This document shows positions 1-24,983 of a stretch of 30,300 nt of DNA, in pieces. How positions within the stretch are numbered: position 1 is the first letter of the stretch; every line of letters starts with the position of its first letter. The stretch is from UHGV virus genome UHGV-1280366. One strand, 5' to 3'. The DNA is from a virus. The notes under the pieces are model-generated. The model saw only the letters and a program-made list of their open reading frames with translations. It had not been told where the DNA came from and made no database searches. A program made the position numbers and the translations under genes.

Positions 1-287
1 CATGATACCAACTCAGGTTAAAACAATGCTTAACAGTGGAGCAACATCAAGAGATTCAGCAGGGAAGAAACAGGTTCGTGTCTTCAATGCAAAATAACTT
101 CCCGCTGGACCCGAACGACAAAAACAATCAGGCAGCGGTAGACCGTTATTTCGCGCAGGATATCGCGCCTTCGTTTTCCATATCTGATCCGCAGAGCATC
201 AATACACTGGTCACCGTCACAACTAAAAGCGGCATGATACCAACTCAGGTTAAAACAATGCTTAACAGTGGAGCAACATCAAGAGAT
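1..287. repeat. 55-bp exact direct repeat, copies at 1-55 and 233-287 (offset 232 bp)
   Basis: Identical strings catgataccaactcaggttaaaacaatgcttaacagtggagcaacatcaagagat at both positions; flanks diverge (tcagc vs cctgc). Copy 1 may extend upstream of the window. Confidence 0.9.
2..97 (+). CDS. 3' end of an upstream virion gene, truncated by the window start; reads ...MIPTQVKTMLNSGATSRD... then stops at TAA 95-97
   Basis: Open frame 2 from the window edge to TAA at 95-97; shares the 18-aa peptide encoded by the 55-bp repeat with the next ORF. Partial, function unknown. Confidence 0.3.
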   Translation: MIPTQVKTMLNSGATSRDSAGKKQVRVFNAK

Positions 288-1223
288 CCTGCGCTGGTTG
301 TCCCGATGGCAAAATTCTACGGTCAGTTATTCGATAATAATCCGGCGGCAGCGGCAACACTTGATAAAAGTACGATGGCATTTTACGGCAAGGTTTACGA
401 TTATTCCCGCGCTGGCGTGCCGGAGGATAAGGCTGTTGATATGGCTTACAGCCAGGTGTTCCAACAGGATGACCGAATGAAACAGATGCTTTCCACTGCC
501 ATGCGAGACAAAAAATATGTCGCGGCGAGGGCAACTGCTGCACAAAATAACGCCAGCAGTCTGACTTCCTTTGGTTCGTGGTCTCCGGATATTACCGATC
601 CAGGAAAATCAAATGCGGCCTATCAGCGAGATTACCAGACAATTTACGATGCTAACTTTGTACAGACAGGTGGCGATGCAGAACAGGCTGAGAAAATGAC
701 CAATGCCATGATCAGAACCACCTGGGGAGTTTCTACGGTTAATGGCAAAGCAGAGGTTATGAAGTATGCACCTGAGGCATTGTACGGAGTAAATAATGGT
801 GCTGGTAACTGGATACAGGGGCAGTGGGAGCAGGAAAAACGCGAGCTTAAATCAAAATCCTTTGGCGGTCCTCGCAGTGATACGGACTTAATACTTGTTT
901 CTGATGGCCTTACGGCAAGGGATAGGAGTTATGCTGTTATGGTTTTACAGCCTGACGCAAACGGAGCGATAGAACCGAGAAATTATATTGGAGAAAATGG
1001 TCTCCCTGTTCGTTTCAAGCCGGATCAACTGACATCTCCAATGTACAGGCAAACCATTCAGTTACAGCAACAGCGTGTTGATGAGGCTAGAGTGCGGAGA
1101 GAAGGCAATCCGCTGCCGCAGTTCAGCAATAAAGATGGATATACTCCTCCAGATCTGACCAAACCATTCGGTTATGGTTCAGCCAATTACCTTCCGAGCA
1201 ATATATACGCAGGGGGCAAATAA
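36..1223 (+). CDS. virion protein, putative DNA-ejection/internal protein (395 aa); start uncertain (ATG 36 or internal ATG 234)
   Basis: Long ORF with ATG start; stop overlaps the next start (TAATG at 1221-1225), indicating translational coupling within the structural operon upstream of the tailspike. Function inferred from position only. Confidence 0.55.
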   Translation: MEQHQEIQQGRNRFVSSMQNNFPLDPNDKNNQAAVDRYFAQDIAPSFSISDPQSINTLVTVTTKSGMIPTQVKTMLNSGATSRDPALVVPMAKFYGQLFDNNPAAAATLDKSTMAFYGKVYDYSRAGVPEDKAVDMAYSQVFQQDDRMKQMLSTAMRDKKYVAARATAAQNNASSLTSFGSWSPDITDPGKSNAAYQRDYQTIYDANFVQTGGDAEQAEKMTNAMIRTTWGVSTVNGKAEVMKYAPEALYGVNNGAGNWIQGQWEQEKRELKSKSFGGPRSDTDLILVSDGLTARDRSYAVMVLQPDANGAIEPRNYIGENGLPVRFKPDQLTSPMYRQTIQLQQQRVDEARVRREGNPLPQFSNKDGYTPPDLTKPFGYGSANYLPSNIYAGGK

Positions 1224-4200
1224 TGCCGATATATGAACAGAATCCTAAAGAGTTGCTTGGCGAGGATATTCAGCAAATAGCAGCACCTGATGACAGTAAT
1301 TTCTATATGGAAACACCTTCTTTGCTTTCTGCTGTGAACCCATTTACCAGTGATCAACGCGTTCAAAGGTCTAGACAAGCAGCATTTCGTATAGATAACA
1401 CGCTGGGTAGCTTTATTGCCAGTGCTCCTTTCAGTCAGTTTGACAGGGTTGAAGGATATAACCCATTTGATAACGATGCAGCAGATATTAAAGGCTATGA
1501 AGATTTTGCAGATTCGTTTATCAACTCCGGTTCGCATGAAGAAACAATGGCAATTAAACATCGAATCGATAAGCAAAGAACAGATAGAGAATATCTATCT
1601 GAAATGGGTGGTGCTGGTACTATTTCAAGCTTAGCAATGGGAATGATAGACCCGGTTAATGTGGCTGCAATGTTCATCCCTGTAGGGGCGGTAGCGCGTG
1701 GAGGAAGTATTGCTGAGACGGCAGGGCGTTTTGCCCTAGCGAATGCTGCTGGTGGGGGAGTATCAGAAGCCGCATTACAGGCCACTCAGGAAGCTCGCTC
1801 ACCGATGGAGAGCGTATCGAACGTTGTTGTTGATGCTCTCGTTGGTGGGATCCTTGGTGCTGGTGCACAGCTACTTGCTGGACCTAGCGCGCGCGAGGCA
1901 GTGGTTAACTCAGTAGGTAATCATTTGCGAGGTATGGATTCTCCTCAAAGCATTGGTGCAGCTCAGGTTTTCAATACCACACTCGATCAGGAACAGCTCG
2001 CTGGACTTGGACTTGCTAACAAAACGTTGAGTGTCACTCCTGCTGGCCGCTTGGCTCAATCACCATCTCTTGTCTCCCGTCAGATTAACCAGCAGCTTGC
2101 CGAAAATAACTATTTCTTCGCCAAAAATGATGAGGGGTTGGCTACGTTTACGGCAGTCGAGACTAAGATTAAGCAATACGACGCCATGCTTTATAAGCAG
2201 ATGGAAGCCACTCGTGATGCTTACCAGCAGTACAGCAAATCTGTTAGCGCCCGCGGCGTGAAGAGGATGAGCTTTATTGATTTCAATGAAGCTGTTGGCA
2301 TGGCTATGCGCCGTGGTGATCAGAGTGATATTCCTGAGGTTTCACAAGCAGCCGCCAGAATCCGCCCCATTTTCGAGACCACAAAAGCCCGTATGCAGGA
2401 ACTGGGGATCCTTCCTGAGGATATCGATGTCGTGACGGCGAAAAGTTATCTTCCCCGCATTTATAAGTTCGATAAGATACTTTCCGACCGCACTGAATTC
2501 AGAGGGCGAATTGCCAACTGGATACAAGGGATTAGTGCCAAAGGTGCTGACAAAGCAGGTCAGCGAATTGAAAGGATAAATTCATTGCTAAAAACTGCAG
2601 AGGAATCGGCACCGCGCGCTGATGCTCTCGCTAGTGAAATCGCTGAAGCGGAGAAATGGTCTGGTAAAAAAATTCTACTTATGGAAGAACTGGATAAACG
2701 AAATAAGCTTATATCTCAGGAGACTGACACACAGGCGCGTCTTACAAGAATAGAAAAAGAGTTGGCCGAGACTTCATCAGAAAAACTTCAGGCAAGAATG
2801 ATGAAAGAAAGCTCTGACCTTAAAACACGCCTTGATGATATAGCGCAGGCAAAGAGTGAGCTTCCTGTCTATCAGCGCCATATGGAGTTGCTGGATAATC
2901 CACGGAAATATCGTTCTGAGCTTCGCCGACTGCAAAAACGGGCAAATTCAACCACAAGGCTGAATGCAAGCCGCGAACGAGCACTGAAGCAGATGGAGCC
3001 TCTATCCCGAGAGGAAGCAGAGGACGCTGCTGACGAGATCGTGAATAAAATAATAGGCGCACCTTCCGGGCTTGTACCAGCCGATATTATCCCAGAGAGA
3101 CTCGTTGGTCGGGCTGGTTTCACTAAAAGCAGAACGCTGCTTATTCCTGATGAGCGTATAGAAGATTTTCTTGAATCAGATGTTAACTACATCATGGAAA
3201 GTTATCTCCGGCAGGTGGCACCAGAAATTGAGCTGACTGCGCAGTTTGGCCGTAAAGATATGGGGGAGCAAATCCGTCAGGTTAGTGAGGAATATACCCG
3301 GCTAATAAAAGAGGCTAAAACACCTAAACGACGTGCAGTTCTTGAGAAGCAACGGGAGGCTGATATTAGGGATATTACGGCTATGCGTGATCGACTGCTT
3401 GGTACTTACGGTGCACCTCAAGATCCACGCAGTTTCTTTGTTCGTGCCGGGCGAGTTGCTAGGAATATTAACTTCCTCCGTTTGCTTGGTGGAATGACTG
3501 TCTCCGCTGCAACTGATCTGATGCGACCGATGATGCAGCATGGCCTGAGAAAATCTCTCGGACCAATGGTAAGCATGCTTAAAAATATGGACTCAGTGAA
3601 AATTGCAACCAGGGATTTGCGAGAAATGGCCGTTGGGCTTGATTATGTCCTGTCTACGCGTACAAAGGCTATAGCGGATCTTACTGACCCCTATAGCCGG
3701 AGAAGCGCCGCTGAGCGAGGTCTGAACTGGATGACGCAGAAATTCGGTAACTGGACGCTGATGAATCAGTGGAACAGCGCACTTAAATCATGGTCCGGGA
3801 TGATAGTGCAGTCGAGGATACTTGACGCGGCTCGCCAAGTTTCTGCTGGTGGCACGCTCTCCAAAAGTGAAATGCGGAAGATGGCACAGGTCGGCATCAA
3901 TGAAGATGTTCTGCGCCGAATCGGGGAGCAATTCGGGAAGCACGGAGAGGATATGGACGGGCTGTTAACCGGGCATAGTCATCTGTGGGATGACCGTTTC
4001 GCTAGAGAGATTTTCCAGTCTGCAGTGCTGAAAGATGTAGACTCAGTGATTGTAACGCCTGGCGTAGGTGATACACCGCTGTTTTTTAGTAAAGAAGGCT
4101 GGAAGATGATCACGCAGTTCAAAACGTTTATCTTCGCACAGCATAACAGGGTGCTAGTATCTGGTATCCAGCAGGGCGATGCTGCATTCTATCTTGGTGC

Positions 4201-4612
4201 GCTTGGCACGATTGCGCTTGGCTCAATGGTCTATATGATGAAACAGAAGTTAAGCGGTCGCGATATCGACTACAGCTGGAATAACCTTGTGAAAGAGGGG
4301 ATCGACCGGGGCGGAATGCTTGGCTGGCTCTCTGAGCCGCTGAATACCGTTGAGAACATAAGCGGCGGTAGGTTTGGTCTTGGCGCGATGTTTGGTGCGC
4401 CTCCGGTATCAAGGTTTCAGAGTCGTAATGCTATTGGTGCTTTACTTGGTCCTACCTTTGATCTTGGCGGTGATGCCGCGACGGTTGCGAATGGTGTACT
4501 TAACGGAGAATTTGACAGCCAGCAAACCCACGCGGTCCGTAAAATGCTACCTTTTCAGAACCTGTGGGCGATATCACCGTTACTAAATAAAGTTGAAGAG
4601 CAGATGAAATAG
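1223..4612 (+). CDS. large virion protein (1129 aa), putative DNA-ejection/internal virion protein
   Basis: 3.4-kb uninterrupted ORF; Gly/Ala-rich hydrophobic segment near residues 130-230, charged coiled-coil-like central region, hydrophobic C-terminal part. Last large gene of the structural module before the accessory island and tailspike. Family not recognised. Confidence 0.75.
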   Translation: MPIYEQNPKELLGEDIQQIAAPDDSNFYMETPSLLSAVNPFTSDQRVQRSRQAAFRIDNTLGSFIASAPFSQFDRVEGYNPFDNDAADIKGYEDFADSFINSGSHEETMAIKHRIDKQRTDREYLSEMGGAGTISSLAMGMIDPVNVAAMFIPVGAVARGGSIAETAGRFALANAAGGGVSEAALQATQEARSPMESVSNVVVDALVGGILGAGAQLLAGPSAREAVVNSVGNHLRGMDSPQSIGAAQVFNTTLDQEQLAGLGLANKTLSVTPAGRLAQSPSLVSRQINQQLAENNYFFAKNDEGLATFTAVETKIKQYDAMLYKQMEATRDAYQQYSKSVSARGVKRMSFIDFNEAVGMAMRRGDQSDIPEVSQAAARIRPIFETTKARMQELGILPEDIDVVTAKSYLPRIYKFDKILSDRTEFRGRIANWIQGISAKGADKAGQRIERINSLLKTAEESAPRADALASEIAEAEKWSGKKILLMEELDKRNKLISQETDTQARLTRIEKELAETSSEKLQARMMKESSDLKTRLDDIAQAKSELPVYQRHMELLDNPRKYRSELRRLQKRANSTTRLNASRERALKQMEPLSREEAEDAADEIVNKIIGAPSGLVPADIIPERLVGRAGFTKSRTLLIPDERIEDFLESDVNYIMESYLRQVAPEIELTAQFGRKDMGEQIRQVSEEYTRLIKEAKTPKRRAVLEKQREADIRDITAMRDRLLGTYGAPQDPRSFFVRAGRVARNINFLRLLGGMTVSAATDLMRPMMQHGLRKSLGPMVSMLKNMDSVKIATRDLREMAVGLDYVLSTRTKAIADLTDPYSRRSAAERGLNWMTQKFGNWTLMNQWNSALKSWSGMIVQSRILDAARQVSAGGTLSKSEMRKMAQVGINEDVLRRIGEQFGKHGEDMDGLLTGHSHLWDDRFAREIFQSAVLKDVDSVIVTPGVGDTPLFFSKEGWKMITQFKTFIFAQHNRVLVSGIQQGDAAFYLGALGTIALGSMVYMMKQKLSGRDIDYSWNNLVKEGIDRGGMLGWLSEPLNTVENISGGRFGLGAMFGAPPVSRFQSRNAIGALLGPTFDLGGDAATVANGVLNGEFDSQQTHAVRKMLPFQNLWAISPLLNKVEEQMK

Positions 4613-5053
4613 CTATTCACAATTAGTGATGGCGTATGTATCAAATATATTGCCATCACTAAATACATACCTATACTCAATCTCTCCGCCAAGGTGAATA
4701 AATGCTTTCATTTGCCTGTTGGAGCAAATGCTCGATTTTGAATAATTTCGCATTACACTCTTTAATTTATTTTCTAAGGTTACATCACCATTATAAACTT
4801 TTGATAAATAGCTGTTGTTGTAATTAAGATGCGCTACAACTAAGAGTTTGTTTAGTATTGCATTTATTGAAACAATAGACATATTATCATTCAATTTTAT
4901 GGGAAGTGACTTTCCTGCTTCTGATGCAATTTTGTTTGCATGTGCACACATATCCTCATTTATTAAATTCTTAAAACATATGTCGTTTGCAAACGAAAAA
5001 ATTGGTAGGATAAACAAAACGGTAGCTGTAATAGCGTGCATCGGCTTAATCAT
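4613..5053 (-). CDS. small hypothetical protein with predicted N-terminal signal peptide (MHAITATVLFILPIFSFA); moron-like
   Basis: ORF in a visibly AT-rich stretch (about 4620-5050) unlike the flanking phage genes; hydrophobic N-terminus ending in A-x-A-like site. Alternative start at 5041. Diverges from the next gene with almost no spacer. Confidence 0.45.
   Translation of the reverse strand: MIKPMHAITATVLFILPIFSFANDICFKNLINEDMCAHANKIASEAGKSLPIKLNDNMSIVSINAILNKLLVVAHLNYNNSYLSKVYNGDVTLENKLKSVMRNYSKSSICSNRQMKAFIHLGGEIEYRYVFSDGNIFDTYAITNCE
4623..4662. repeat. 11-bp perfect inverted repeat (ttagtgatggc / gccatcactaa) with 18-nt spacer
   Basis: Seen directly, at the convergent junction of the 1129-aa gene and the minus-strand gene 4613-5053; no flanking T-tract. 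Confidence 0.6.
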
Positions 5054-5065
5054 TAGGTGACCTTT

Positions 5066-5515
5066 ATGTTCAAGAAGATGATCAACAGATTAATCGGTGG
5101 TAAGGAGGTTAGCAATAAAATTCAACCTCTTATCTTTAAGGATAACTTTTCAGCTTTTGAGTATGCGTGTAAGTATCTTGACACAAGCCTTTCAGCCAAT
5201 AAACCAATGCCAGCCATCATCATACCTGGTCCCAGTGGGGAACAGCCAGTTTTGCTGGATTCTGGAAGACAAAGGGCAATGCTGAAGGTGTGCTCAGCTG
5301 ATGGTGGATTTTTTGTTATTGCCGATTCATCTTACAGCAAAGGACCAAAGCTGAGGATTGGTGATCTTGTTGCTTGGTTGCCTGTGAGTTATGCCGAAGA
5401 ATTAACGGATAAAATAGAAGATCCTCGCTCCGCTATGGTTGGCTTTATATTGGGAACCATTCATCCTGAACTAACATCTACTGGCTGGAAGGGTAAAGAA
5501 AGATTTCGCAAGTAG
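5066..5515 (+). CDS. hypothetical protein (about 149 aa)
   Basis: ORF; track start 5057 is GTG, so ATG 5066 was chosen, preceded by AGGTGA 6 nt upstream; followed by an intrinsic terminator. Confidence 0.5.
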   Translation: MFKKMINRLIGGKEVSNKIQPLIFKDNFSAFEYACKYLDTSLSANKPMPAIIIPGPSGEQPVLLDSGRQRAMLKVCSADGGFFVIADSSYSKGPKLRIGDLVAWLPVSYAEELTDKIEDPRSAMVGFILGTIHPELTSTGWKGKERFRK

Positions 5516-5529
5516 CGTGACATGTCACA

Positions 5530-5553
5530 GGCCGCTTTCGCGGCCTTGTTTTT
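5530..5553 (+). terminator. rho-independent terminator (GGCCGC-tttc-GCGGCC then TTGTTTTT)
   Basis: Perfect 6-bp GC stem, 4-nt loop, T-rich tail immediately after the stop of 5066-5515. Confidence 0.6.
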
Positions 5554-5593
5554 AACGAATGCCACCGCCGCCCGGGTGGGAATCCGCAGACAC

Positions 5594-5614
5594 AAAAAAG
5601 CCCGCGCCGCGGGC
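5594..5614 (-). terminator. rho-independent terminator for minus-strand gene 5620-6252
   Basis: On the minus strand GCCCGCG-g-CGCGGGC followed by TTTTTT (A-run 5594-5599 on the + strand). Confidence 0.55.
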
Positions 5615-5619
5615 TTCTA

Positions 5620-6252
5620 TTAATGCAGTTTATCTTTGCTTATAACCAGTAGTCTGTGGGTATGCACATCTTTATCACTGCCCCAACAGAAATCAGCCCA
5701 CTGGCTATAGAAATCATCCCATGATGTCATGAAGCTAAGAGGTCTATCTTCTTCAGAGCCATCTGAAACGTATACATTATATCCCGGGGTGTTTATAGCC
5801 CAAGAAATCATTCTTTCCCAGAATCTTCTCCCATCGATTGTTTGTTGCTCATCAGATACAACGATCGCATATTGCTCTAGGAAGAACTGAAAAAAAATCT
5901 GAGGCAAACCATGAACAGCACGGTCATGAATAACATTAGGCGTACGCCATACCATGATCTGCGTACATGTTCTTTTGGCTTCGACGATATCTTCCCGAAA
6001 GATTAACTTAACCGCATACACCGTTTCTGGAGTATCGCTGGTAGTAATCATTCTGTAATGATCGCCATTACAAGATTTTACAAGGCGATAACCATAAGGT
6101 GTTGTGAATCCCGGAAGAACGAAATCAACCACACCTTTCGCTAAGTAGCTTTCGGTGTGACTAGTGTTCTTCTCAGACATGTTCAGTTTTCTATCGAAAT
6201 CTGCTTCTGGGATAATGTATGGCATCGCTTTTCTTGTTGTATTTGTTTTCAT
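5620..6252 (-). CDS. hypothetical protein (210 aa), accessory island
   Basis: ORF with ATG at 6252 and GGAGG 6 nt upstream on the minus strand; bracketed by a terminator and an upstream TTACC-N5-GGTAA palindrome. No family recognised. Confidence 0.6.
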   Translation of the reverse strand: MKTNTTRKAMPYIIPEADFDRKLNMSEKNTSHTESYLAKGVVDFVLPGFTTPYGYRLVKSCNGDHYRMITTSDTPETVYAVKLIFREDIVEAKRTCTQIMVWRTPNVIHDRAVHGLPQIFFQFFLEQYAIVVSDEQQTIDGRRFWERMISWAINTPGYNVYVSDGSEEDRPLSFMTSWDDFYSQWADFCWGSDKDVHTHRLLVISKDKLH

Positions 6253-6311
6253 TTCGTCCTCCCATGTTTGGCTACAGGACGCGTTTTGAAGGGAAGATTA
6301 AAAACGCTTTC

Positions 6312-6326
6312 TTACCCGTAAGGTAA
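6312..6326. promoter_or_regulatory. palindromic motif TTACC-cgtaa-GGTAA(TAT), copy 1 of 3
   Basis: Seen directly, about 60 bp upstream of minus-strand gene 5620-6252; same motif at 7372-7386 and 7754-7768. Confidence 0.35.
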
Positions 6327-6391
6327 TATTACGCGAATCTACATCACATCGCCAATGATTATTTTAAAGGCACATCCCTGTGCCGCCGCCG

Positions 6392-7102
6392 TCAGAAGAA
6401 CCCTGCCTTGTCGTTGATGTACTCCGCGTGCGTCTGGATATCACGCAGGCATTTGCTCACACCGACGATGTAGCAGAACATGGTGGTCAGCTCCGCCGCC
6501 GCGCCCGATACGTCGTGCCCGTCTTCCTGTAACTGGTTCAGCAGATTCATCAGCAGTGAGTTTTCCGTCAGGCCGAGAACACCAGACGGAGAATGAATCA
6601 GGCTGCGGTAGCCGGGCTTCAGTGGGGCGCTGTAGGTTTTGTTCTCTATCTTCATTGCCTGCATCACTGCTGATGCTGTGGCGTTGGCTACCTGGTCGGC
6701 AACCATCTTTATGCGTTCTTCCTGCGGGAGCGAGTTTTTAATGTAACTTCCTGTGCGGCGGATCTGAGGAAGAACCTCACCTGTAACCCATTTACGAAAG
6801 CGGTAGGGGATAGTGCCTGGTGTTACTGCATCGCGGCAGCGGAGGATCAGTGTGTAGAGGCCTGACTCGGAGATGATGTTGATCTCTTTTACTCGGCTGT
6901 CAAAAATTGCACGATGTTCATGCCCTATGTTGAACATAGACCTTTCATCATCATCCAGTTTTTCAAGTGATTGGGTGACGTTTTGGATACGCAGCGCACT
7001 ACAAACGTCTTGGGCTACAAACCATGGTTGGCCATCGATAATGATGGAACGGATAGGGTTAACAGATTCAAATTTGAAGATGGCAGTTTGAGCATTAGCC
7101 AT
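6392..7102 (-). CDS. Bro-N / KilA-N family antirepressor-like protein
   Basis: N-terminal region (FKFESVNPIRSIIIDGQPWFVAQDVCSALRI...) resembles Bro-N DNA-binding domains of phage antirepressors; start moved to MANAQ (ATG 7102) with GGAGATAA upstream. C-terminal domain is paralogous to the product of 7418-7675. Confidence 0.7.
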   Translation of the reverse strand: MANAQTAIFKFESVNPIRSIIIDGQPWFVAQDVCSALRIQNVTQSLEKLDDDERSMFNIGHEHRAIFDSRVKEINIISESGLYTLILRCRDAVTPGTIPYRFRKWVTGEVLPQIRRTGSYIKNSLPQEERIKMVADQVANATASAVMQAMKIENKTYSAPLKPGYRSLIHSPSGVLGLTENSLLMNLLNQLQEDGHDVSGAAAELTTMFCYIVGVSKCLRDIQTHAEYINDKAGFF

Positions 7103-7258
7103 GGTGGTTATCTCCACTTAGTGATTTTAATCACCACCGCAACGCCAATTACTGGTGGTGAACTGGACAAGGTTGGCGTACCGGCCTAAGTGGTACCGGC
7201 GTCCTTTCGGACCCCTGCCCAGCCCACCATAATTCGGATATAGCTGTGCTTAACGCAT

Positions 7259-7280
7259 AAAAAAACCACGTCTGGCGTGG
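7259..7280 (-). terminator. rho-independent terminator downstream of minus-strand gene 7418-7675
   Basis: CCACG-ccaga-CGTGG hairpin followed on the minus strand by seven T (A-run 7259-7265 on +). Confidence 0.55.
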
Positions 7281-7371
7281 TATGCGCCACTTAGTAACTC
7301 GGGACGCCAATCCCGGCACTGGATTTTGCCAGTGCCCGATTACTATGGCACAAGAGGAGTGCAATGTAAAT

Positions 7372-7386
7372 TTACCGCAAAGGTAA
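7372..7386. promoter_or_regulatory. palindromic motif TTACC-gcaaa-GGTAA(ATAT), copy 2 of 3
   Basis: Seen directly; between the stop of 7418-7675 and the terminator at 7259-7280. Confidence 0.3.
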
Positions 7387-7417
7387 ATATAAGCACTCCA
7401 TTTGGTAATTGCAAACC

Positions 7418-7675
7418 TTATCTGGTTTGTTTTCGTAATTGTTCGGCACAATAGTCGAGATGTGTTTGCAGATCCTGCATAGACATCTGTGAGCTGGTGA
7501 CGTAGTTAATCAGTGCAGTCAGTTCGGCAAGTGGGCCATCGACATTAAATCCATCCTTATCGAGATCCCGGAGTAATTTCATCAAGTGCGATCCCTCCAC
7601 CAGTGACCTGACGCCTCCCGGCGTGTGAATCCTTTCGGTAAATCCGTCTTCCAGTGGATAGTGATACTGCTGCAT
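7418..7675 (-). CDS. short antirepressor C-terminal-domain paralog (about 85 aa), candidate SOS-regulated antirepressor
   Basis: Product aligns with the C-terminal 65 residues of the 6392-7102 protein (shared IH.P.GV..L.E.S.LM.LL..L..DG..V.G..AELT...Y...D.QTH). ATG 7675 chosen for GGAGAAG about 8 nt upstream; alternative ATG 7690. Confidence 0.6.
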   Translation of the reverse strand: MQQYHYPLEDGFTERIHTPGGVRSLVEGSHLMKLLRDLDKDGFNVDGPLAELTALINYVTSSQMSMQDLQTHLDYCAEQLRKQTR

Positions 7676-7694
7676 CTTAATCTTCTCCATGCAA

Positions 7695-7714
7695 TAACTG
7701 TATGTTTATACAGT
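7695..7714. promoter_or_regulatory. LexA (SOS) box, aaCTGTATGTTTATACAGta
   Basis: Matches CTGT-N8-ACAG with an AT-rich spacer (consensus TACTGTATATATATACAGTA); 5-20 bp upstream of the start codons of 7418-7675; overlaps a TATAAA -10-like hexamer on the minus strand. Confidence 0.6.
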
Positions 7715-7753
7715 AGCAAATAATTTGTTTGCTATCCAGCACGTTTTGCAAAT

Positions 7754-7768
7754 TACCTGAAAGGTAAT
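7754..7768. promoter_or_regulatory. palindromic motif TTACC-tgaaa-GGTAA(TAT), copy 3 of 3
   Basis: Seen directly, between the LexA-box gene and the tailspike gene (about 100 bp upstream of ATG 7872). Confidence 0.35.
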
Positions 7769-7871
7769 ATCTATTCATATTCACAGTCTTTCTATCCATA
7801 TGTGGTTTTTCAGGTAATAGAATAACCAGATATGCGGCGCAACGGGTGCTGCGACTATCTGGAGATTTAAC

Positions 7872-9980
7872 ATGACGGTCTCAACCAAAGTTGACCACAA
7901 CGAATACACAGGTAACGGCGTTACGACATCGTTTCCGTATACTTTTCGAATTTTCAGAAAATCAGACCTGGTTGTTCAGGTGTCTGACCTGAACGGGAAC
8001 GTAACAGAATTGGTTCTGGATACCGGTTATACGGTAATTGGGGTGGGAGCTTATAGTGGTGGTACAGTGGTTCTTCCGTCGCCGCTTGCTGCTGGCTGGC
8101 GAATCACTATAGAGCGTGTGCTTGATGTGGTGCAGGAGACTGACCTTCGAAATCAGGGGAATTTTTTTCCAGAAGTTCATGAGGATGCATTTGACTACCT
8201 GACGATGCTGATTCAGCAGTCTTTTTCTGGTCTATCTCTTGCACTCAGAAAGCCATCACGTTTATCAAATTATTATGATGCTCGTGATAACAGAATCCAA
8301 AACTTAGCAAGCCCAATTCTCCCGAACGATGGTGTAAACCGTAATTTTGTAGAAAACCTTTTTATTGATAAAAGCGCATCTGCTTCTGCATTGCGCTCTT
8401 TGCTGGAAAGCGCAGCTGGGGCTGGAATAATTGGTACATTGCAGGGATTAACCGTTCAGTCAGTTTTAGATAATGTAAAAATCCCACTGACGTCATTCGT
8501 GTTTTCTATTCCTGATGATTTTGCTAATGCAGATTCTTTAGCAGAATATCTTGAAAATAGATGCTATACCGGCACGCAAGTAATAGTACATGTCTCAGCA
8601 GGCACTCATAATTGGAATACTCTAAATAAGATTTTTGGGAAAGAGTGGGGTTTTGGCCGACTTAAATTTGTTGGTGAAGGAATGGATTTGACAATTATTC
8701 AGTTTCTTAAACAGGACGGAATTTATGCTGAAGCAGGTGAGTGTTATGGTCATGCGCCACAGTTTCCCGTGAGTGGTGGTGATATAATACCAATATTTAG
8801 TAATTTAACTATATCAGGAATTGACAGAGATTCAGGAATTGATGATCCATATCTTGATTCAATGGGGATAAGGGCGTTTGACGGCGGTGTTGTTGTACTT
8901 GATGAAAGCGTAAGAATAACTCAGTTTTCCAGGTGTGGAGTTATGGCTGAGAGGCATGGTATAGCTTTTGTTCCTGGGGTTAAAGTCGATACTACAGGTT
9001 CTGATTGTTTCGCTGCCTCTGAAGGTGGTTATATCTATTGTCCAGACTCTACAGCAAGCAACCCGAAAGGTCATTGCTACATCGCATATTCTGGAGGGCA
9101 GCTTTATATGCCTAACTGTATTGCTCAGAATGCAGAGACACACAACTCGTCAAATGTAGGGGGATCTGGTCTTGTGTTGACCGGAAGCAGTTACGCTTAC
9201 GCTATTAATCTTCAAACTAAAAACAATGCTCAACGTGGAATTAGTGTGGCGTTAGGGTCTTTTCTACGAGCTGACGGGTTTACTGAGAGTGAAAATATTC
9301 TACCTGTGACTGTTTCGCAGGGTTCCACGTTGGTTTCTCCAAATTGCACAATAAACAAACCAGATGCTCTTGCGCTTTTAATTGAGAAAGGAGGAAAGGC
9401 ATTTTTCCAGGTAGCAACAACTGATAAGTTTACTATGTATGGTAGAGCAACAGTACAGTCAATGGGGGTTCTTCATGCACCAGATGGCGACATAACGAAC
9501 AGTTCAGGCAATTCAATATCTGCAATTAACTCAACAGTTGACGTTGACAGAACAACTTTCCATGGTTCTCCTGCTGTAGCTATCTATGCCATGGATGGAG
9601 CGATGGTTAAATGTAGCAATGGAGAATCTCAGACAACTACAGGGACAACAATTATTGCTCAAAATGCAAAGGTTATCGCTGATGGCTTTAAGGTAAAAGG
9701 AAATCCATCAATAGGGTTTAGAGCAACTATGTCTGGAATAATTTCTGCGAAAAACACATCAGTTATCAAGGCCGGTCAATATGGTTACTTTTCTGAAAAT
9801 ATGGGGGCATTTATTGATGCTACAGGTGCTACAGTAGGAGATGCTTTCTCTGGTTTTAAAGCAATAAACGGAGCCAGAATTAATGCTACGCAATCAGATG
9901 CTACAGGATCATATACAGGAGGTGCTTATAGCCCATCAGTAAATTTAGCAGATGAAAAACTAACAATAATAATAAAGTAA
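7872..9980 (+). CDS. tailspike / tail fibre protein (702 aa)
   Basis: N-terminus (NEYTGNGVTTSFPYTFRIF...DLVVQV) carries the conserved podovirus tail-fibre/tailspike N-terminal adaptor motif; Gly/Ser/Thr-rich C-terminal 500 aa consistent with a beta-rich receptor-binding domain; GGAG RBS; last late gene before attP. Confidence 0.8.
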   Translation: MTVSTKVDHNEYTGNGVTTSFPYTFRIFRKSDLVVQVSDLNGNVTELVLDTGYTVIGVGAYSGGTVVLPSPLAAGWRITIERVLDVVQETDLRNQGNFFPEVHEDAFDYLTMLIQQSFSGLSLALRKPSRLSNYYDARDNRIQNLASPILPNDGVNRNFVENLFIDKSASASALRSLLESAAGAGIIGTLQGLTVQSVLDNVKIPLTSFVFSIPDDFANADSLAEYLENRCYTGTQVIVHVSAGTHNWNTLNKIFGKEWGFGRLKFVGEGMDLTIIQFLKQDGIYAEAGECYGHAPQFPVSGGDIIPIFSNLTISGIDRDSGIDDPYLDSMGIRAFDGGVVVLDESVRITQFSRCGVMAERHGIAFVPGVKVDTTGSDCFAASEGGYIYCPDSTASNPKGHCYIAYSGGQLYMPNCIAQNAETHNSSNVGGSGLVLTGSSYAYAINLQTKNNAQRGISVALGSFLRADGFTESENILPVTVSQGSTLVSPNCTINKPDALALLIEKGGKAFFQVATTDKFTMYGRATVQSMGVLHAPDGDITNSSGNSISAINSTVDVDRTTFHGSPAVAIYAMDGAMVKCSNGESQTTTGTTIIAQNAKVIADGFKVKGNPSIGFRATMSGIISAKNTSVIKAGQYGYFSENMGAFIDATGATVGDAFSGFKAINGARINATQSDATGSYTGGAYSPSVNLADEKLTIIIK

Positions 9981-10077
9981 GCAATATGCTATAGTTCATG
10001 ACTTATTAATGATAACTATATGCACAAAGCTTTGCACTTGATTGCAATGCTTTGTGCCATTCTATAGTTAAGGTGGA
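9981..10077. other. candidate attP region between convergent tailspike and int genes
   Basis: 97-bp AT-rich spacer with ctatagtt direct repeats (9989-9996, 10061-10068) and a 9-bp inverted repeat GCACAAAGC...GCTTTGTGC; position by analogy to lambda/P22 attP adjacent to the int 3' end. Core not identifiable without attB. Confidence 0.35.
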
Positions 10078-11236
10078 TCACTCCACCTTTTCATCAAGCC
10101 AGTCCGCCCACCACTGCATCATTTCTCTGCGCTTATCTAGATACTGAGCATGGTTGTAAATACCGCGCACAGATCCGCCGTTGGCATGTGCCAGTTGCAC
10201 TTCAATAGCGTCAGCAGGCCATTCATGCTCGTTCATAATCGTGCTGAATTCATGCCTGAATCCGTGACCGCTTTCCAGACCTTCATAGCCGATTTGTTTG
10301 ATCACAAGTAGCACCGCGTTCTCGCAGATTGGCTTCTTCTTATCGTTGCGTCCGGCAAAAACAAACTCTGATACTGGTTTAGTGATGGAGCTTAGCGTAG
10401 TGAGAAGTTCAACCACCTGGTCTGACATCGGGACCACATGAATTTTGCGTCCCTTCATCACACTGGCGTCGATGGTGATAATCCTGTTTTCAAAATCGAC
10501 GTTCTTCCATTGCATGGAGCGAAGCTCTTTCGTTCTTAGGGCTGTGTAGCGTAAAACTTTGGTCGCAATGAGCGATACGATACTTCCTGAAAATGTTGCC
10601 AGTGCTTTGTTGAATGCCGGGATCTGGTCTGCAGGAAGAAACGGGAAGTTCTTCTTGCGGTATCCCTTCATGGCGTCAGCAAGGTCAGGTGCCGGGTTAT
10701 ATTTAGCCCTACCAGTGACAATAGCGTAACGGAAAACCTCGCCGCATCTTCTGCGGGCTTTGTTGGCTCGCTCCATTGCACCGCGATCTTCAAATCTGCG
10801 GATTACTTCCAGCAGTTGCATCGGCTCAATATCCAGAATCTCGAGACCGCCGATGATGGGTAAAATGTCGTCATCAAACATTTTGGCAAGTTCAGTCGCA
10901 TACCCTACAGACCAGACTTGCTTCTTGTGCTCGTACCATTCCTTGTAAATGGCGCTAAAGGAATTGTTGTTAGACGAAGCCTTTTTCGCTTTTACCGGAT
11001 CTATGCCAACCGAGATGTCTTTCCTCGCAGTCCATGCTCTATCCCTTGCCTCCTGCAAAGTCATAAGCGGATATTTTCCGACAGTCAGGATTTTCTCCTT
11101 ACCGTCAATCTTGTAGCGAAGCTGCCATACCTTTTTCCCGGATACAGGGACATAAAGATACAGGCCATTACCATCGAGAAGGCGGTATGGTTTTTCTTTC
11201 GGCTTTGCTGCTTCAATCTGCTTAACGGTTAGCATG
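10078..11236 (-). CDS. int: tyrosine integrase (P4-like, N-terminal arm-binding domain)
   Basis: N-terminus MLTVKQIEAAKPKEKPYRLLDGNGLYLYV matches the arm-binding domain of P4-family integrases; C-terminal region has catalytic-domain features (HGFRH, tyrosine near the C-terminus). Track start 11271 is GTG; ATG 11236 chosen. Confidence 0.9.
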
Positions 11237-11500
11237 GGTAAAAATCCGGTGGGTAAAATTATTTTATCCACTTTTTACCCGTCATGGTGTGCGGCTGTCA
11301 ACGATCTGACGCGAACCATGACGAACCGTGAATATACGGAAGGCTTGATATTCAGGGGATTTTGCGGACTGGTGCGGATGGGAGCGAACTGATAAATGGT
11401 GTCCCCTGCAGACATCTACTTGAGGCAGCAGGGGATTGATTGGAATGGTGTTTTTGAGATGTGAGAAATATTTTACCCGCTATTTTACCCATTGGCGCGG
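11233..11500. repeat. cluster of GGGTAAAA / TTTTACCC octamer repeats around the int start and the int-xis spacer
   Basis: At least five copies in both orientations (about 11235, 11252, 11273, 11473, 11486); possible Int/Xis or regulator binding sites. Confidence 0.4.
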
Positions 11501-20160: not shown

Positions 20161-20346
20161 ATGTACAAGAAAGATGTTATCGACCACTTCGGAACCCAGC
20201 GTGCTGTAGCTAAAGCGTTAGGCATTAGCGACGCAGCAGTCTCTCAGTGGAAGGAAGTCATCCCAGAGAAAGACGCCTATCGACTGGAAGTCGTTACAGC
20301 TGGCGCCCTGAAGTATCAAGAAAGCGCTTACCGCAAAGCGGCATAA
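20161..20346 (+). CDS. cro: Cro repressor
   Basis: MYKKDVIDHFGTQRAVAKALGISDAAVSQWKEVIPEKDAYRLE... matches P22 Cro as recalled; GGAG RBS. Confidence 0.9.
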   Translation: MYKKDVIDHFGTQRAVAKALGISDAAVSQWKEVIPEKDAYRLEVVTAGALKYQESAYRKAA

Positions 20347-20351
20347 GCAAA

Positions 20352-20397
20352 TTGCTCTTTAACAGTCATGGTCCTCATTCCCGCCGAAATGCGGGAA
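20352..20397 (+). promoter_or_regulatory. nutR (boxA TGCTCTTTAACA plus boxB hairpin TCCCGCCGAAATGCGGGA)
   Basis: Immediately downstream of the cro stop; same boxB as nutL. Confidence 0.7.
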
Positions 20398-20454
20398 TAC
20401 AACGCGCATAAGTTGATGCGCATAACTTCTTATTTGTTAAGGAAATACTTACAT

Positions 20455-20748
20455 ATGGTTCGTGCAAACAAACGCAACGAGGCTCTAAGAATCGAGAGTG
20501 CGTTGCTTAACAAAATCGCAATGCTTGGAACTGAGAAGACAGCGGAAGCTGTGGGAGTTGATAAGTCGCAGATCAGCAGGTGGAAGAGGGATTGGATTCC
20601 AAAGTTCTCAATGCTGCTTGCTGTTCTTGAATGGGGCGTCGTTGACGACGATATGGCTCGATTGGCACGACAAGTTGCTTCGATTCTCACCAATAAAAAA
20701 CGCCCGGCGGCAACCGAGCGTTCTGAACAAATCCAGATGGAGTTCTGA
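20455..20748 (+). CDS. cII: CII transcriptional activator
   Basis: [97 protein letters not shown] is essentially lambda CII as recalled; the track ORF from 20368 is an upstream extension across nutR. Confidence 0.9.
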
Positions 20749-20780
20749 GGTCATTACTGGATCTATCAACAGGAGTCATT

Positions 20781-20927
20781 ATGACAAAACAACTCAGTCC
20801 TTACCAGGACAAAATTCACAAACACATACTACGTGATCGCTTCCTGTCCAGCTTCAAGCAGCCTGGTCGATTCCGGGCTGAGTTGGAAAAAGTGAAGCTG
20901 ATGCAGAAGGAGAAAGGTCATGAGTAA
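20781..20927 (+). CDS. small ORF (48 aa) between cII and O, possibly P22 orf48-like
   Basis: ATG with AGGAG RBS; stop overlaps the O start region; not in the ORF track (under 60 aa). Confidence 0.4.
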
Positions 20928-21780
20928 TCTTGCAACCGTAACACATTTAAGGCCTTCACAACGGCCTGTGGAGCGTCGTGTGGCAGAAGTTGAAGATGGT
21001 TATACCCGTCTTGCAAATGCCCTGTATGAAGAGCTTATCGGCGCAGATTTAACGAAAAATCAGAGCAAGGTTGCCCACGCCATATGCCGTAAAACATACG
21101 GCTACGGTAAAAAGATGGATCGCATCTCTGATAGTCAGTTAGCTCAAATTACCAGGCTGCCAAGACAGAAGGTAAATAAGGCCAAGAATGAGCTTATCGC
21201 GATGAAGGTTATCCTTCGCGAAGGCCAGCAAATCGGGCCTAACAAGAACATCGAGGAATGGCAAATAGAAGGGTGTCACTACTCTGGTGATAATGTCACT
21301 GCATTGGTGACAAAAAGTGTCACCAAAACGGTGACAGCGCTGTCACCAAAACAGGGACACACAAAAGAAACTATTACAAAAGAAAAAAGAAATAATAAAA
21401 ACACTATGTCCGAAAGTGTTCGGACGGAGTGTGAAAAATCACATGACCGTCACGAAGAAACCGACAAGGCATTCGAGGAAATATTCTGGTGTGCAGGCAT
21501 GCGGAAAGCCGGGAAGAAAAACGCAGCTTCGGCATTCAGAACACAGTTCAGGGAATGGCGTAAAACTACCAGGGGTACGGCAAGAGAGTTTGCCACGATG
21601 CTGGCAGAAGACATCGCATGCAGGAATGGTAAGCAGTTCGGATTCGACAGGTTGTTACCATCGAGCTACCTGAACGGTCAACGCTGGAACGACGAGAAGC
21701 CAGAAACTATTCAACCACAATCCAAACCATCATCCGCAATCACCGTATCGAAAACTGGCTACGTGTTTTTCGACAGGTGA
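20920..21780 (+). CDS. O: replication initiator O-like protein with divergent C-terminal domain
   Basis: N-terminal 110 aa resemble lambda O ([14 protein letters not shown]...DLTKNQSKV...[18 protein letters not shown]...GPNKNIEEW); the gene contains the ori iterons; the C-terminal half is unlike the lambda P-interaction domain. Confidence 0.85.
21273..21400. repeat. origin of replication: iterons (GGTGACA / TGTCACC palindromic repeats) followed by AT-rich tract
   Basis: Repeated tgtcac/gtgaca units at 21273-21350 then an A-rich stretch 21361-21400, inside the O gene as in lambda ori. Confidence 0.65.
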
Positions 21781-21887
21781 ACCATGAAATCAAAAATCAA
21801 ATCGCTACTGGTCGCTGGTTATAACCACGGTTGGTTAAGTATTTCGTTTGTCGATTTCTGGTTTAAAAATCTCAATCTGAGGGAATC

Positions 21888-23768: not shown

Positions 23769-23797
23769 ATGACCATCTACATCACTGAGCTAATAAC

Positions 23798-23830
23798 AGG
23801 CCTGCTGGTAATCGCAGGCCTTTTTATTTT
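23798..23830 (+). terminator. rho-independent terminator (tR2-like) before the nin region
   Basis: AGGCCTGC-tggtaatc-GCAGGCCT stem followed by TTTTTATTTT. Confidence 0.65.
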
Positions 23831-23845
23831 GGGGAGAGGGAAGTC

Positions 23846-24810: not shown

Positions 24811-24983
24811 GACGACAGCGACGAAGTTTCACCGACATCATCTGCGAAAACTGCAAATACCTTCCAACGAAGCGCTCCAGAAATAAACCCAAGCCAATCC
24901 CAAAAGAATCTGACGTAAAAACCTTCAACTACACGGCTCACCTGTGGGATATCCGGTGGCTAAGACATCGTGCGAGGAAATGA
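24807..24983 (+). CDS. ninE: NinE
   Basis: [53 protein letters not shown] matches lambda NinE as recalled; ATGA overlap with dam. Confidence 0.8.

What the first reader, a model, noticed from the sequence alone, without database searches (positions are those of the whole stretch)
7872..9980. Tailspike with conserved N-terminal adaptor and a divergent receptor-binding domain
The first 110 aa carry the tail-fibre/tailspike adaptor motif (YTGNG.TTSFPYTF), not the P22 head-binding domain, and the remaining 600 aa are Gly/Ser/Thr-rich without obvious similarity to tailspikes I recall. This predicts an uncharacterised glycan depolymerase or receptor-binding specificity that determines host range.
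Basis: partly seen in the sequence, partly recalled or inferred. Interest (0 to 1): 0.4.

Follow-up and report, generated by a model that had tools for sequence, protein, structure and literature searches.

The report
Probable K95-capsule tailspike, epsilon15-type anchor
This gene encodes an ordinary modular phage tailspike: a standard epsilon15/phiV10-type attachment domain joined to a rare beta-helix receptor-binding module that most likely recognises, and probably degrades, the E. coli K95 capsule, so it probably identifies the gene behind a phage activity reported in the 1990s.

Summary
The ORF is real: 7872-9980, + strand, 702 aa, with a GGAG ribosome-binding site. The motif YTGNGVTTSFPYTF is at aa 12-25.

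- **Anchor.** Residues 1-~165 are the epsilon15/phiV10-type tailspike anchor, not the P22 head-binding domain. This matches the upstream virion genes, which are epsilon15-like, not P22-like.
- **Receptor-binding module.** Residues ~196-702 model as a confident right-handed beta-helix. They belong to a very small family, about 10 clusters among 5.8 billion proteins.
- **Module swapping.** The module is 61% identical to the uncharacterised second tailspike of coliphage K5 (orf523). It is nearly identical to the module of P22-anchored prophage tailspikes.
- **Specificity.** Only 2 of 5,426 complete E. coli genomes carry the module. They have different O-antigens, but both carry the rare K95 capsule locus (7 genomes). 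Phage K5 is reported to degrade K5 and K95 capsules, and it has a K5 lyase plus orf523. I therefore infer a K95 capsule tailspike, probably a depolymerase. Chemistry and catalytic residues are untested.
- **Caveat.** This exact ORF is a hybrid of two natural alleles, crossing over at nt 9512-9590. At the same point the flanking genome switches from epsilon15-like to P22-like. This is either a real recombinant or an assembly chimera.

It is a new member of a known kind, of moderate interest.

The parts
7861..7864 (+). Shine-Dalgarno-like GGAG, 7 nt before the ATG
   Evidence: Read directly from the sequence.
7872..9980 (+). Tailspike gene, 702 codons plus TAA
   Evidence: ORF list. Tail protein, tail-fibre and tailspike PHROG families match. 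Synonymous changes far outnumber non-synonymous ones against natural alleles.
7872..8225 (+). N-terminal particle-binding anchor, aa 1-118, epsilon15/phiV10 type; profile similarity continues to about aa 165
   Evidence: About 92-93% DNA identity over nt 1-354 of the gene to many E. coli prophage tailspike genes that carry other C-termini, such as endosialidase or GH28-like. 70.6% amino-acid identity to epsilon15 gp20 over aa 1-163. PDB Dpo31/Dpo36 and Carin-1 tail fibre N-termini match at E 2e-27. No PF09008 hit.
8226..8456 (+). Neck/linker, aa 119-195, partly helical and modelled with low confidence
   Evidence: AlphaFold2 pLDDT is below 50 up to aa 171, with short helices at aa 158-199. This stretch is specific to the 702-aa prophage tailspikes.
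8457..9977 (+). Receptor-binding module, aa 196-702, right-handed parallel beta-helix (K5 orf523 family)
8757..9134 (+). Most conserved core of the module, aa 296-421: DDPYxDxMGxRxFDG, VDTTGSD, NPxGHC and YMPN motifs. Candidate substrate groove or active site (inferred only).
   Evidence: Invariant columns include D304, D324, D325, D329, D337, E360, D373, D378 and H401. Identity to K5 orf523 is 70-80% in the 40-residue blocks covering aa 281-440.
9512..9590 (+). Crossover interval between two natural alleles
   Evidence: Within the tailspike gene the window differs from the epsilon15-like prophage copy L022 at only three sites (9161-9170) before nt 9590; mismatches are dense from 9590 onward. 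Over nt 51-9724 the two are 99.73% identical. Against the P22-like E400634 allele, the last clustered mismatch is at 9512 and only one more follows, at 9828.
36..4612 (+). Upstream virion-internal/ejection protein genes of the EC.W1-9 (epsilon15-like) type: the C-terminal 395 aa of a 915-aa protein, then a 1129-aa protein
   Evidence: 97.8% identity to phage EC.W1-9 at 20309-24870. The same genes are present in prophage L022. PHROG 342 and 1044 match.
4613..7690 (.). Accessory genes between the virion genes and the tailspike, including a Bro-N/Ant-like antirepressor (6392-7117, minus strand)
   Evidence: PHROG 130 Ant, E 1e-56. 96.9% identity to the phiV10-like K1 prophage of strain CE10 over 5591-8225.
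10078..11271 (-). IntS-type integrase of the P22-like/HK620-like part; homology to an argW-integrated prophage ends at about nt 11411
   Evidence: PHROG 1 integrase. Window 8616-11411 is 95.9% identical to the E400634 prophage up to a point inside tRNA-Arg.

Best explanation
The gene encodes a virion tailspike, presumed to be a homotrimer, built from two exchangeable parts. Residues 1-~118 (profile similarity to ~165) form the anchor that docks the spike on the tail hub of an epsilon15/phiV10-type (Uetakevirus-like) podovirus, whose virion genes lie directly upstream. After a short neck, residues ~196-702 form a right-handed parallel beta-helix that binds the host surface polysaccharide. The most likely target is the K95 group 2 capsule of E. 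coli, a Kdo- and ribofuranose-containing polymer whose locus encodes an acetyltransferase. The spike most likely also cleaves this polymer as an endoglycosidase, letting the phage reach the outer membrane and so setting host range. Shown here: the ORF, the anchor homology, the beta-helix fold prediction, the module's distribution, and its exclusive co-occurrence with K95 capsule loci in complete genomes. Inferred: K95 as substrate, enzymatic cleavage (hydrolase rather than lyase), the conserved acidic residues at aa 304-378 as the active site, and trimer formation.
For: **Tailspike identity.**
- PHROG tail protein, tail-fibre and tailspike families match aa 1-165, E down to 6e-95.
- The anchor is 70.6% identical to epsilon15 gp20.
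- The gene sits in the tailspike position after EC.W1-9/phiV10-type virion genes.

**Fold.**
- The AlphaFold2 model has 323 residues at pLDDT >= 90 and continuous beta rungs over aa 210-680.

**The module is a mobile receptor-binding unit.**
- The same ~490-aa module occurs behind a P22 head-binding domain (P0002, PF09008), a Tail_spike_N domain (P0005) and a tail-collar fibre N-terminus (P0006).
- It occurs in a myovirus baseplate cluster (L006) and in a multi-spike phage (L017).
- In K5 orf523 it follows an N-terminus, MLQRLSTKLIQ, that resembles the adapter-binding undecapeptide MIQRLGSSLVK of the K1-5 endosialidase (PMC6872550).

**K95 specificity, line 1 (lysogens).**
- Blastn down to roughly 65-70% identity finds the module in only 2 of 5,426 complete E. 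coli genomes.
- The two prophages sit at different sites: argW and ybhB-bioA.
- The hosts have different O-antigen clusters: a rare Rha/ManNAc type and O75.
- Both hosts carry the same kps region 2 at 99.9% identity. That region is present at >= 97% identity in only 7 genomes.
- The region encodes a cytidylyltransferase, a 1112-aa Bcs3-like polymerase and a WcbI acetyltransferase.
- Its polymerase is 78.4% identical to that of strain ERP001, and the polymerases of strains 042 and ERP001 are 85.27% identical to each other.
- These figures reproduce the published values K109-K95 78.64% and K74-K109 85.28% (PMC13171606 supplement). Strain 042 is O44:H18 (from memory), the serotype of the K74 type strain. 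The locus is therefore K95.
- The K95 type strain is O75:K95:H5.
- The chance that two random genomes both fall among those 7 is about 1.4e-6.

**K95 specificity, line 2 (literature).** Phage K5 is reported to degrade K5 and K95 capsules (review PMC7344395 citing Nimmich 1994). K5 carries the K5 lyase and, as its second spike, orf523. That gene arrangement is from memory of Scholl et al. 2001 and was not re-read.

**Functional gene.** Synonymous changes greatly outnumber non-synonymous ones.
Against: - No enzymology and no solved close homologue exist. Catalytic residues are not identified, and the model coordinates could not be inspected.
- The K95 link rests on two lysogens plus a virion-level report for a phage whose orf523 is only 61% identical. 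Related capsules (K74, K109, K135) share much of their biosynthetic machinery, so the exact type could differ, or several types could be recognised.
- A lysogen's capsule shows what the phage once infected, not necessarily what this allele binds now.
- In K56-43-un the K95 polymerase gene is split into three ORFs and the O75 wzy gene is frameshifted, so that strain may not express either polymer.
- The Nimmich and Scholl papers were not held and could not be read.
- The Pfam Beta_helix hit is below threshold.
- The exact 702-aa sequence is absent from a 15-billion-protein collection and may be a chimera.
Confidence: 0.65

Rival explanations
1. The module is an O-antigen-specific tailspike, like those of P22, HK620 and epsilon15. 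It would cleave or bind the lipopolysaccharide O-chain rather than a capsule.
For: Most characterised tailspikes of P22-like and epsilon15-like phages target O-antigen (established knowledge). The beta-helix fold fits equally well.
Against: The only two complete genomes with the module have unrelated O-antigen clusters. One has rfbBDAC-wzx-wecB and an EpsG-type wzy that occurs in only 13 genomes. The other has O75 wzx/wzy. Both share the K95 capsule locus. The K5 relative sits in a phage known for capsule spikes.
Confidence: 0.08
2. The module recognises a K95-related or different surface glycan, or binds K95 without cleaving it. In the second case it would be an adhesin-type spike, or an esterase that removes O-acetyl groups.
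For: K74, K109, K95 and K135 loci share about 97%-identical accessory genes and 73-85%-identical polymerases, so the polymers are related. No catalytic residues are established. The closest fold match, the Andhra receptor-binding protein, has no demonstrated enzyme activity in the paper read.
Against: None of the 7 genomes with K74- or K109-type loci carries the module. Virion-level degradation of K95 by phage K5 is reported. The block of invariant Asp, Glu and His residues at aa 304-401 is typical of a catalytic groove, but this is inference.
Confidence: 0.17
3. The ORF exactly as it stands in the window is not a natural allele. It would be an assembly chimera, joined across the ~1 kb that an epsilon15-like and a P22-like prophage of one strain share.
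For: Residues 1-577 equal P0012, which sits in epsilon15-like prophages. Residues 295-702 match the P22-anchored allele apart from 2 residues. All nine public full-length 702-aa proteins examined carry the other C-terminal allele. The exact protein is absent from the 15-billion-protein collection. The flanks switch phage type at the same point. The window's first 55 nt are an exact copy of nt 233-287, exactly one common assembler k-mer length (k = 55 is from memory), suggesting a short-read contig end. Some strains carry both prophage types.
Against: Homologous recombination between phages sharing this module is expected. A phiV10-like prophage in strain VG48B2 carries a 135-nt integrase remnant after its tailspike cassette, a footprint of such an exchange. 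The P22-like part appears in the circular gene order (integrase, attachment site, then early genes), which fits insertion of a circular phage into the resident tailspike gene. Either way both halves are natural and functional, so the functional reading does not change.
Confidence: 0.4

Closest known systems
Coliphage K5 orf523 (AAG59820.1, record AF322018.1; SP6-like Zindervirus)
   Same: 60.8% identity over aa 210-702, E 6e-175. The same ~490-aa module runs to the very C-terminus, with the same invariant motifs. It probably has the same capsule target.
   Different: orf523 has no anchor domain. It starts with a short peptide, MLQRLSTKLIQ, that resembles the adapter-binding undecapeptide of the K1-5 endosialidase. 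It therefore rides on a separate adapter protein in a virulent two-spike phage. It has never been characterised as a protein in the literature I could search.
Tailspikes of epsilon15 (gp20), phiV10 and related prophages, including the K1 endosialidase spike of the CE10 prophage
   Same: Homologous N-terminal anchor: 65-71% amino-acid identity to epsilon15 and phiV10, and about 92% DNA identity to E. coli prophage copies. Same gene position after the same type of virion genes.
   Different: Their receptor-binding parts are unrelated: O-antigen endorhamnosidase, endosialidase, GH28-like and others. Similarity ends at about aa 118-165.
P22-anchored prophage tailspikes of E. coli (WP_282656269.1 in E400634, WP_250908294.1 in K56-43-un; 642 aa)
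   Same: The receptor-binding module is essentially the same from aa 295 on. The cluster representative P0002 has 2 mismatches there, and the E400634 and K56-43-un copies differ at 4-5 codons over the last 408.
   Different: Their N-terminus is the P22 head-binding domain PF09008. The first ~100 residues of the module are only about 50% identical. They sit in P22-like prophages.
Receptor-binding protein gp15 of Staphylococcus phage Andhra (PDB 8egr)
   Different: Only 14% identity, a Gram-positive host and a different attachment. This is a fold resemblance only.
K5 lyase KflA (PDB 2x3h) and K1 endosialidases of K1F, K1-5 and related phages
   Different: No sequence similarity. They have different substrates, and KflA ranks only 28th among the fold matches.

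Membership tests
epsilon15/phiV10-type (Uetakevirus-like) tailspike | N-terminal anchor domain homologous to epsilon15 gp20 / phiV10 tail fibre | tested here: met
   70.6% identity over aa 1-163 to epsilon15 gp20 and 67% to phiV10. PHROG 1640 E 6e-95.
epsilon15/phiV10-type (Uetakevirus-like) tailspike | Encoded directly after epsilon15-type virion-internal protein genes and the accessory-gene block | tested here: met
   Window 51-9724 is 99.7% identical to an epsilon15-organised prophage (L022). Window 51-4612 is 97.8% identical to phage EC.W1-9, whose gene order is epsilon15-like.
epsilon15/phiV10-type (Uetakevirus-like) tailspike | Followed by the holin-endolysin cassette of the same phage | tested here: not met
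   In the window the gene is followed by an IntS integrase and a lambdoid early region of P22-like phages. The natural parents L004 and L022 do have the lysis cassette.
epsilon15/phiV10-type (Uetakevirus-like) tailspike | Trimer bound to the tail hub through the anchor | not testable with these tools
   There is only a structural precedent: homologous N-termini are resolved on the tail of phage Carin-1 (8ck1) and in Dpo31/Dpo36.
P22-type tailspike | N-terminal head-binding domain (Pfam PF09008) | tested here: not met
   No PF09008 hit at E <= 1. The sister protein P0002 has it.
Right-handed parallel beta-helix glycan-binding or depolymerase module (pectate-lyase-like superfamily) | Beta-helix fold | tested here: met
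Right-handed parallel beta-helix glycan-binding or depolymerase module (pectate-lyase-like superfamily) | Identified catalytic acid/base residues in a groove | tested here: inconclusive
   Invariant D304, D324, D325, D329, D337, E360, D373, D378 and H401 are listed. No three-dimensional mapping or homologous active site was available.
K5 orf523 family (proposed K95 capsule spike) | Full-length homology of the ~490-aa module to orf523 | tested here: met
   60.8% identity, E 6e-175. The family has only 10 clusters among 5.8 billion proteins, and 5 representatives at E < 1e-30 among 1.84 billion.
K5 orf523 family (proposed K95 capsule spike) | Prophage copies occur in strains with the K95 kps locus | tested here: met
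   2 of 2 complete genomes carrying the module have the K95-type region 2, which is present in 7 of 5,426 genomes. K-type assignment uses the published identities. The sample is small.
K5 orf523 family (proposed K95 capsule spike) | Binds and depolymerises K95 polysaccharide | not testable with these tools
   Only virion-level activity of phage K5 on K95 is reported, second-hand through a review.
K5 lyase (KflA) / endosialidase capsule spikes | Sequence homology of the catalytic module | tested here: not met

The most novel reading that the evidence does not exclude
The orf523 family is the long-unidentified K95 capsule depolymerase. It would be a new glycoside hydrolase family acting on a ribofuranose-Kdo polymer. 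In addition, the window would capture a real event in which a circular P22-like phage recombined into the tailspike gene of a resident epsilon15-like prophage through their shared receptor-binding module. The shared host-range module would then act as a portable homology patch that fuses unrelated phage genomes.
Probability: 0.3. Interest if true: 0.6.

Novelty: new member of a known kind. Interest (0 to 1): 0.4.

Why it matters
Modular tailspikes are well known, so the architecture itself is ordinary. The value lies in three specific points.

- **A gene for a known activity.** A concrete gene family can now be proposed for the K95-specific depolymerase activity reported for coliphages in the early 1990s. 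K95 is an extraintestinal E. coli capsule whose type strain is O75:K95:H5. A cloned K95 spike would serve capsule typing, phage host-range engineering and enzyme-based decapsulation.
- **A possibly new enzyme family.** It would act on a ribofuranose-Kdo polymer and has no structural or sequence precedent.
- **Module mobility.** One receptor-binding module sits on at least six attachment solutions across podoviruses and myoviruses. Such a module can also be the crossover point between unrelated phage genomes.

Tried and rejected
- **Wrong phage label.** I first called the window's phage 'CUS-3-like/P22-like', because the early region matches HK620, Sf101 and CUS-3 and because K1 strains have endosialidase spikes with the same anchor. 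That was wrong for the left part. The CE10 K1 prophage and phage EC.W1-9 are epsilon15/phiV10-organised. The window's 915-aa and 1129-aa proteins have no tblastn match in P22-like or phiV10-like loci.
- **O-antigen as receptor.** Typing the lysogens' O-antigen gave two unrelated clusters, so this was rejected.
- **K100, K18 or K22.** I guessed these because the host is O75 and the polymerase is Bcs3-like. I rejected them: K100 has a 485-aa CDP-ribitol synthase and K18/K22 have no acetyltransferase in the locus, whereas this locus has a 231-aa CTP_transf_3 protein and a WcbI acetyltransferase.
- **K135.** Rejected because its locus lacks the acetyltransferase.
- **Searches with no useful hit.** NCBIfam gave no hit. 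PDB sequence searches with the single sequence and with the profile gave nothing beyond the anchor. The BFVD fold search gave only generic beta-helix spikes. The promoter/terminator scan gave nothing above chance.
- **Papers not held.** Scholl 2001 (K1-5/K5) and Nimmich 1994 (K95 phages) could not be read.
- **Published K-type calls.** Looking up the lysogen assemblies in the kTYPr supplement found nothing.
- **Cross-matching samples.** I considered matching samples that hold the K95 polymerase against those that hold the tailspike, using exact-protein look-ups. I dropped this because places with identical neighbours are collapsed in the output.
Full report
**Observation.** The ORF at 7872-9980 (+ strand) is real. 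It has an ATG start with GGAG 7 nt upstream, 702 codons and a TAA stop. The motif YTGNGVTTSFPYTF lies at residues 12-25. No P22 head-binding domain (PF09008) is detected. The only Pfam signal near threshold is a Beta_helix hit at residues 541-669. The C-terminal 537 residues contain 28.8% Gly+Ser+Thr. The gene is under purifying selection: against a natural prophage copy, codons 101-600 differ at 24 synonymous and 3 non-synonymous codons.

**The N-terminal part.**
- Seventeen PHROG families, about half annotated as tail protein, tail fibre or tailspike, match residues 1 to ~165 and nothing further (best E 6e-95).
- tblastn against 50,697 phage records finds this part in 130 records. Identity is 70.6% to epsilon15 gp20 and 67% to phiV10.
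- In 5,426 complete E. coli genomes, the first 354 nt of the gene recur at about 92% identity in about 390 genomes. There they are fused to many different C-termini, including endosialidases and GH28-like proteins.
- The PDB holds homologous N-termini in Dpo31/Dpo36 and on the tail of phage Carin-1.
- This is therefore the standard particle-binding anchor of epsilon15/phiV10-type podoviruses.

I first labelled the phage CUS-3/P22-like, and that was wrong for this side of the gene.
- The K1 prophage of CE10 that shares the accessory-gene block and the anchor has an epsilon15 gene set, including a capsid staple gp10 and a T7 gp14-like core protein.
- Phage EC.W1-9, which is 97.8% identical to window 51-4612, has the same organisation.
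- A draft-genome prophage, L022, is 99.73% identical to window 51-9724.
- The anchor is what the upstream virion genes require.

**The C-terminal part.**
- An AlphaFold2 model built on 11 sequences gives pLDDT above 90 for most of residues 210-680, as an uninterrupted stack of beta rungs. The N-terminus and the last ~25 residues are unreliable.
- Neither the sequence nor a family profile finds any solved homologue.
- The family is very small: 10 clusters at 90% identity among 5.8 billion proteins. A full HMM scan of 1.84 billion representatives finds 5 at E < 1e-30. The next hits, at E 1e-17 and weaker, are generic beta-helix spikes.
- All members align from an IPxDF motif (aa 213) to the C-terminus. 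A very conserved core at aa 296-421 is rich in invariant Asp, Glu and His.

**A mobile module.** The same module is attached in at least six different ways:
- to this epsilon15-type anchor (P0001, P0012);
- to a P22 head-binding domain (P0002, 64 member sequences);
- to a Tail_spike_N domain in a virulent podovirus (P0005);
- to a tail-collar fibre N-terminus (P0006);
- inside a myovirus baseplate cluster (P0003);
- next to another spike in a multi-spike phage (P0009).

The one hit among isolated phages is coliphage K5 orf523: 60.8% identity over aa 210-702, E 6e-175. Its N-terminus, MLQRLSTKLIQ, resembles the undecapeptide MIQRLGSSLVK through which the K1-5 endosialidase binds the adapter protein (PMC6872550). 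This marks orf523 as the second spike of a two-spike phage.

**What it binds: genomic evidence.**
- Even at blastn sensitivity, only two complete E. coli genomes carry the module: E400634 and K56-43-un. Both copies are on P22-type anchors.
- The prophages sit at different sites, argW and ybhB-bioA.
- The hosts have unrelated O-antigen clusters. One has a rare rfbBDAC-wzx-wecB cluster whose wzy occurs in 13 genomes. The other has O75 wzx/wzy. This argues against an O-antigen receptor.
- Both hosts carry the same group 2 capsule region 2 at 99.9% identity. That region occurs at >= 97% identity in only 7 of 5,426 genomes, and at about 88% in 7 more.
- The region encodes a 231-aa cytidylyltransferase, a 1112-aa polymerase related to Bcs3 and ribofuranosyltransferases, and a 530-aa WcbI acetyltransferase.

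**Typing the capsule locus as K95.**
- The kTYPr catalogue (PMC13171606) describes exactly this gene set for K74, K109 and K95; the related K135 locus lacks the acetyltransferase. It gives pairwise polymerase identities of 85.278% for K74-K109 and 78.636% for K109-K95.
- My blastp values are 85.265% for strain 042 against ERP001 and 78.437% for E400634 against ERP001.
- Strain 042 is O44:H18 (from memory), the serotype of the K74 type strain.
- So 042 is K74, ERP001 is K109 and the lysogens are K95. The K95 type strain is O75:K95:H5, which fits K56-43-un.
- According to that paper, this set of capsules contains Kdo and ribofuranose.
- The chance that two random genomes both fall among the seven K95 genomes is about 1.4e-6. 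The two lysogens represent independent lineages and independent insertion events.

**What it binds: literature evidence.** A review states that phage K5 degrades the capsules of both K5 and K95 strains, citing Nimmich 1994 (PMC7344395). K5 has the K5 lyase and, next to it, orf523. That arrangement, and a suggestion in Scholl et al. 2001 that the ORF might serve K95, are from my memory, because the papers are not held. By elimination, orf523 is the K95 enzyme. I found no paper that characterises it.

**Mechanism proposed.** A trimeric spike is anchored by residues 1-~118. The beta-helix binds K95 polymer along a groove and cleaves it, probably hydrolytically, because the known phage enzymes for Kdo-containing K antigens are hydrolases (from memory). 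The conserved acidic cluster at aa 304-378 is the candidate catalytic site. Fold and distribution are shown here. Substrate, chemistry and residues are inferred.

**A complication in this particular copy.**
- The window's protein equals P0012 for residues 1-577. It equals the P22-anchored allele, apart from 2 residues, for residues 295-702.
- Within the tailspike gene the window differs from the epsilon15-like prophage L022 at only three sites (9161-9170) before nt 9590. It is nearly identical to the E400634 allele after nt 9512.
- All nine public full-length 702-aa proteins examined carry the other C-terminal allele. The exact sequence is absent from a 15-billion-protein collection.
- The flanks switch at the same place. 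To the left are epsilon15-type virion genes. To the right are an IntS integrase, an attachment site, an excisionase-like gene, a lambdoid early region and a lysis cassette that match HK620, CUS-3 and Sf101 as far as nt 30292 of the 30,300-nt window.
- The window's first 55 nt exactly repeat nt 233-287, which suggests the end of a short-read contig.
- The ORF is therefore the junction of two phage genomes. It could be a real recombinant, for example a circular P22-like genome inserted by homologous recombination into the resident spike gene. Exchanges of this kind leave footprints, such as the 135-nt integrase remnant in the VG48B2 prophage. Alternatively it could be an assembly chimera from a strain carrying both prophages; such strains exist.
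- Either way, both halves are natural alleles of the same module, and the functional reading is unchanged.

**Verdict.** This is a new member of a known kind of protein, belonging to a tiny uncharacterised receptor-binding family. It comes with a specific, testable prediction of K95 capsule specificity. Interest is moderate.

Noticed in passing
window 1-55 and 233-287: The first 55 nt of the window are an exact copy of nt 233-287, and the repeated prefix is exactly 55 nt long. Collinearity with related prophages starts at nt 51. This looks like a k-mer-length artefact at the start of a short-read contig.
   Followed up: partly
window 1-9590 versus 9512-30292: The window joins an epsilon15/EC.W1-9-type late region (99.7% to prophage L022) to a P22-like/HK620-like integrase, early and lysis region. 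The switch lies inside the tailspike gene. The P22-like part has integrase, attachment site and excisionase-like gene in the circular (non-integrated) order.
   Followed up: partly
window 9566-9979 (aa ~565-702): Two strongly diverged alleles of the last ~135 residues exist: 131 nt differences and 45 non-synonymous codons over the last 102 codons. In public data one allele goes with the epsilon15-type anchor and the other with the P22 anchor. Only this window mixes them. Whether the C-terminal cap affects specificity or trimer assembly is unknown.
   Followed up: partly
L012 38600-44800 and L011 11770-12844 (E. coli K56-43-un): In this lysogen the K95 polymerase gene is annotated as three separate ORFs and the O75 wzy gene as frameshifted. 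This could be sequencing error, or loss of both surface polymers in a strain that carries a capsule-specific prophage.
   Followed up: no
L020 20535-20669 (E. coli VG48B2): A phiV10-like prophage has a 135-nt integrase remnant, 95% identical to window 10077-10200, between its tailspike cassette and its holin genes. This is a footprint of a tailspike cassette imported from a P22-like phage.
   Followed up: partly
window 6392-7117 and 7418-7690 (minus strand): The 90-aa ORF just upstream of the tailspike is homologous to the C-terminal domain of the neighbouring Bro-N/Ant-like protein. Both match PHROG 450 and 15539, so this is a duplicated antirepressor C-terminal module.
   Followed up: no
protein clusters: Some E. 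coli assemblies encode both the 702-aa (epsilon15-anchored) and the 642-aa (P22-anchored) spike: locus-tag prefix H6297 (EGI1168516/EGI1168169), and probably the neighbouring accessions HHX5311246/HHX5311058. Two unrelated prophages with the same receptor module share one host.
   Followed up: no
L014 (E. coli 042) and L015 (E. coli ERP001): By polymerase identity to the published values, the enteroaggregative strain 042 carries the K74 capsule locus and the red-panda isolate ERP001 the K109 locus.
   Followed up: yes
window 10022-10058: An inverted repeat, GCACAAAGC...GCTTTGTGC, lies in the 97-nt spacer between the tailspike stop and the integrase stop. No T-run follows, and its function was not examined.
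   Followed up: no
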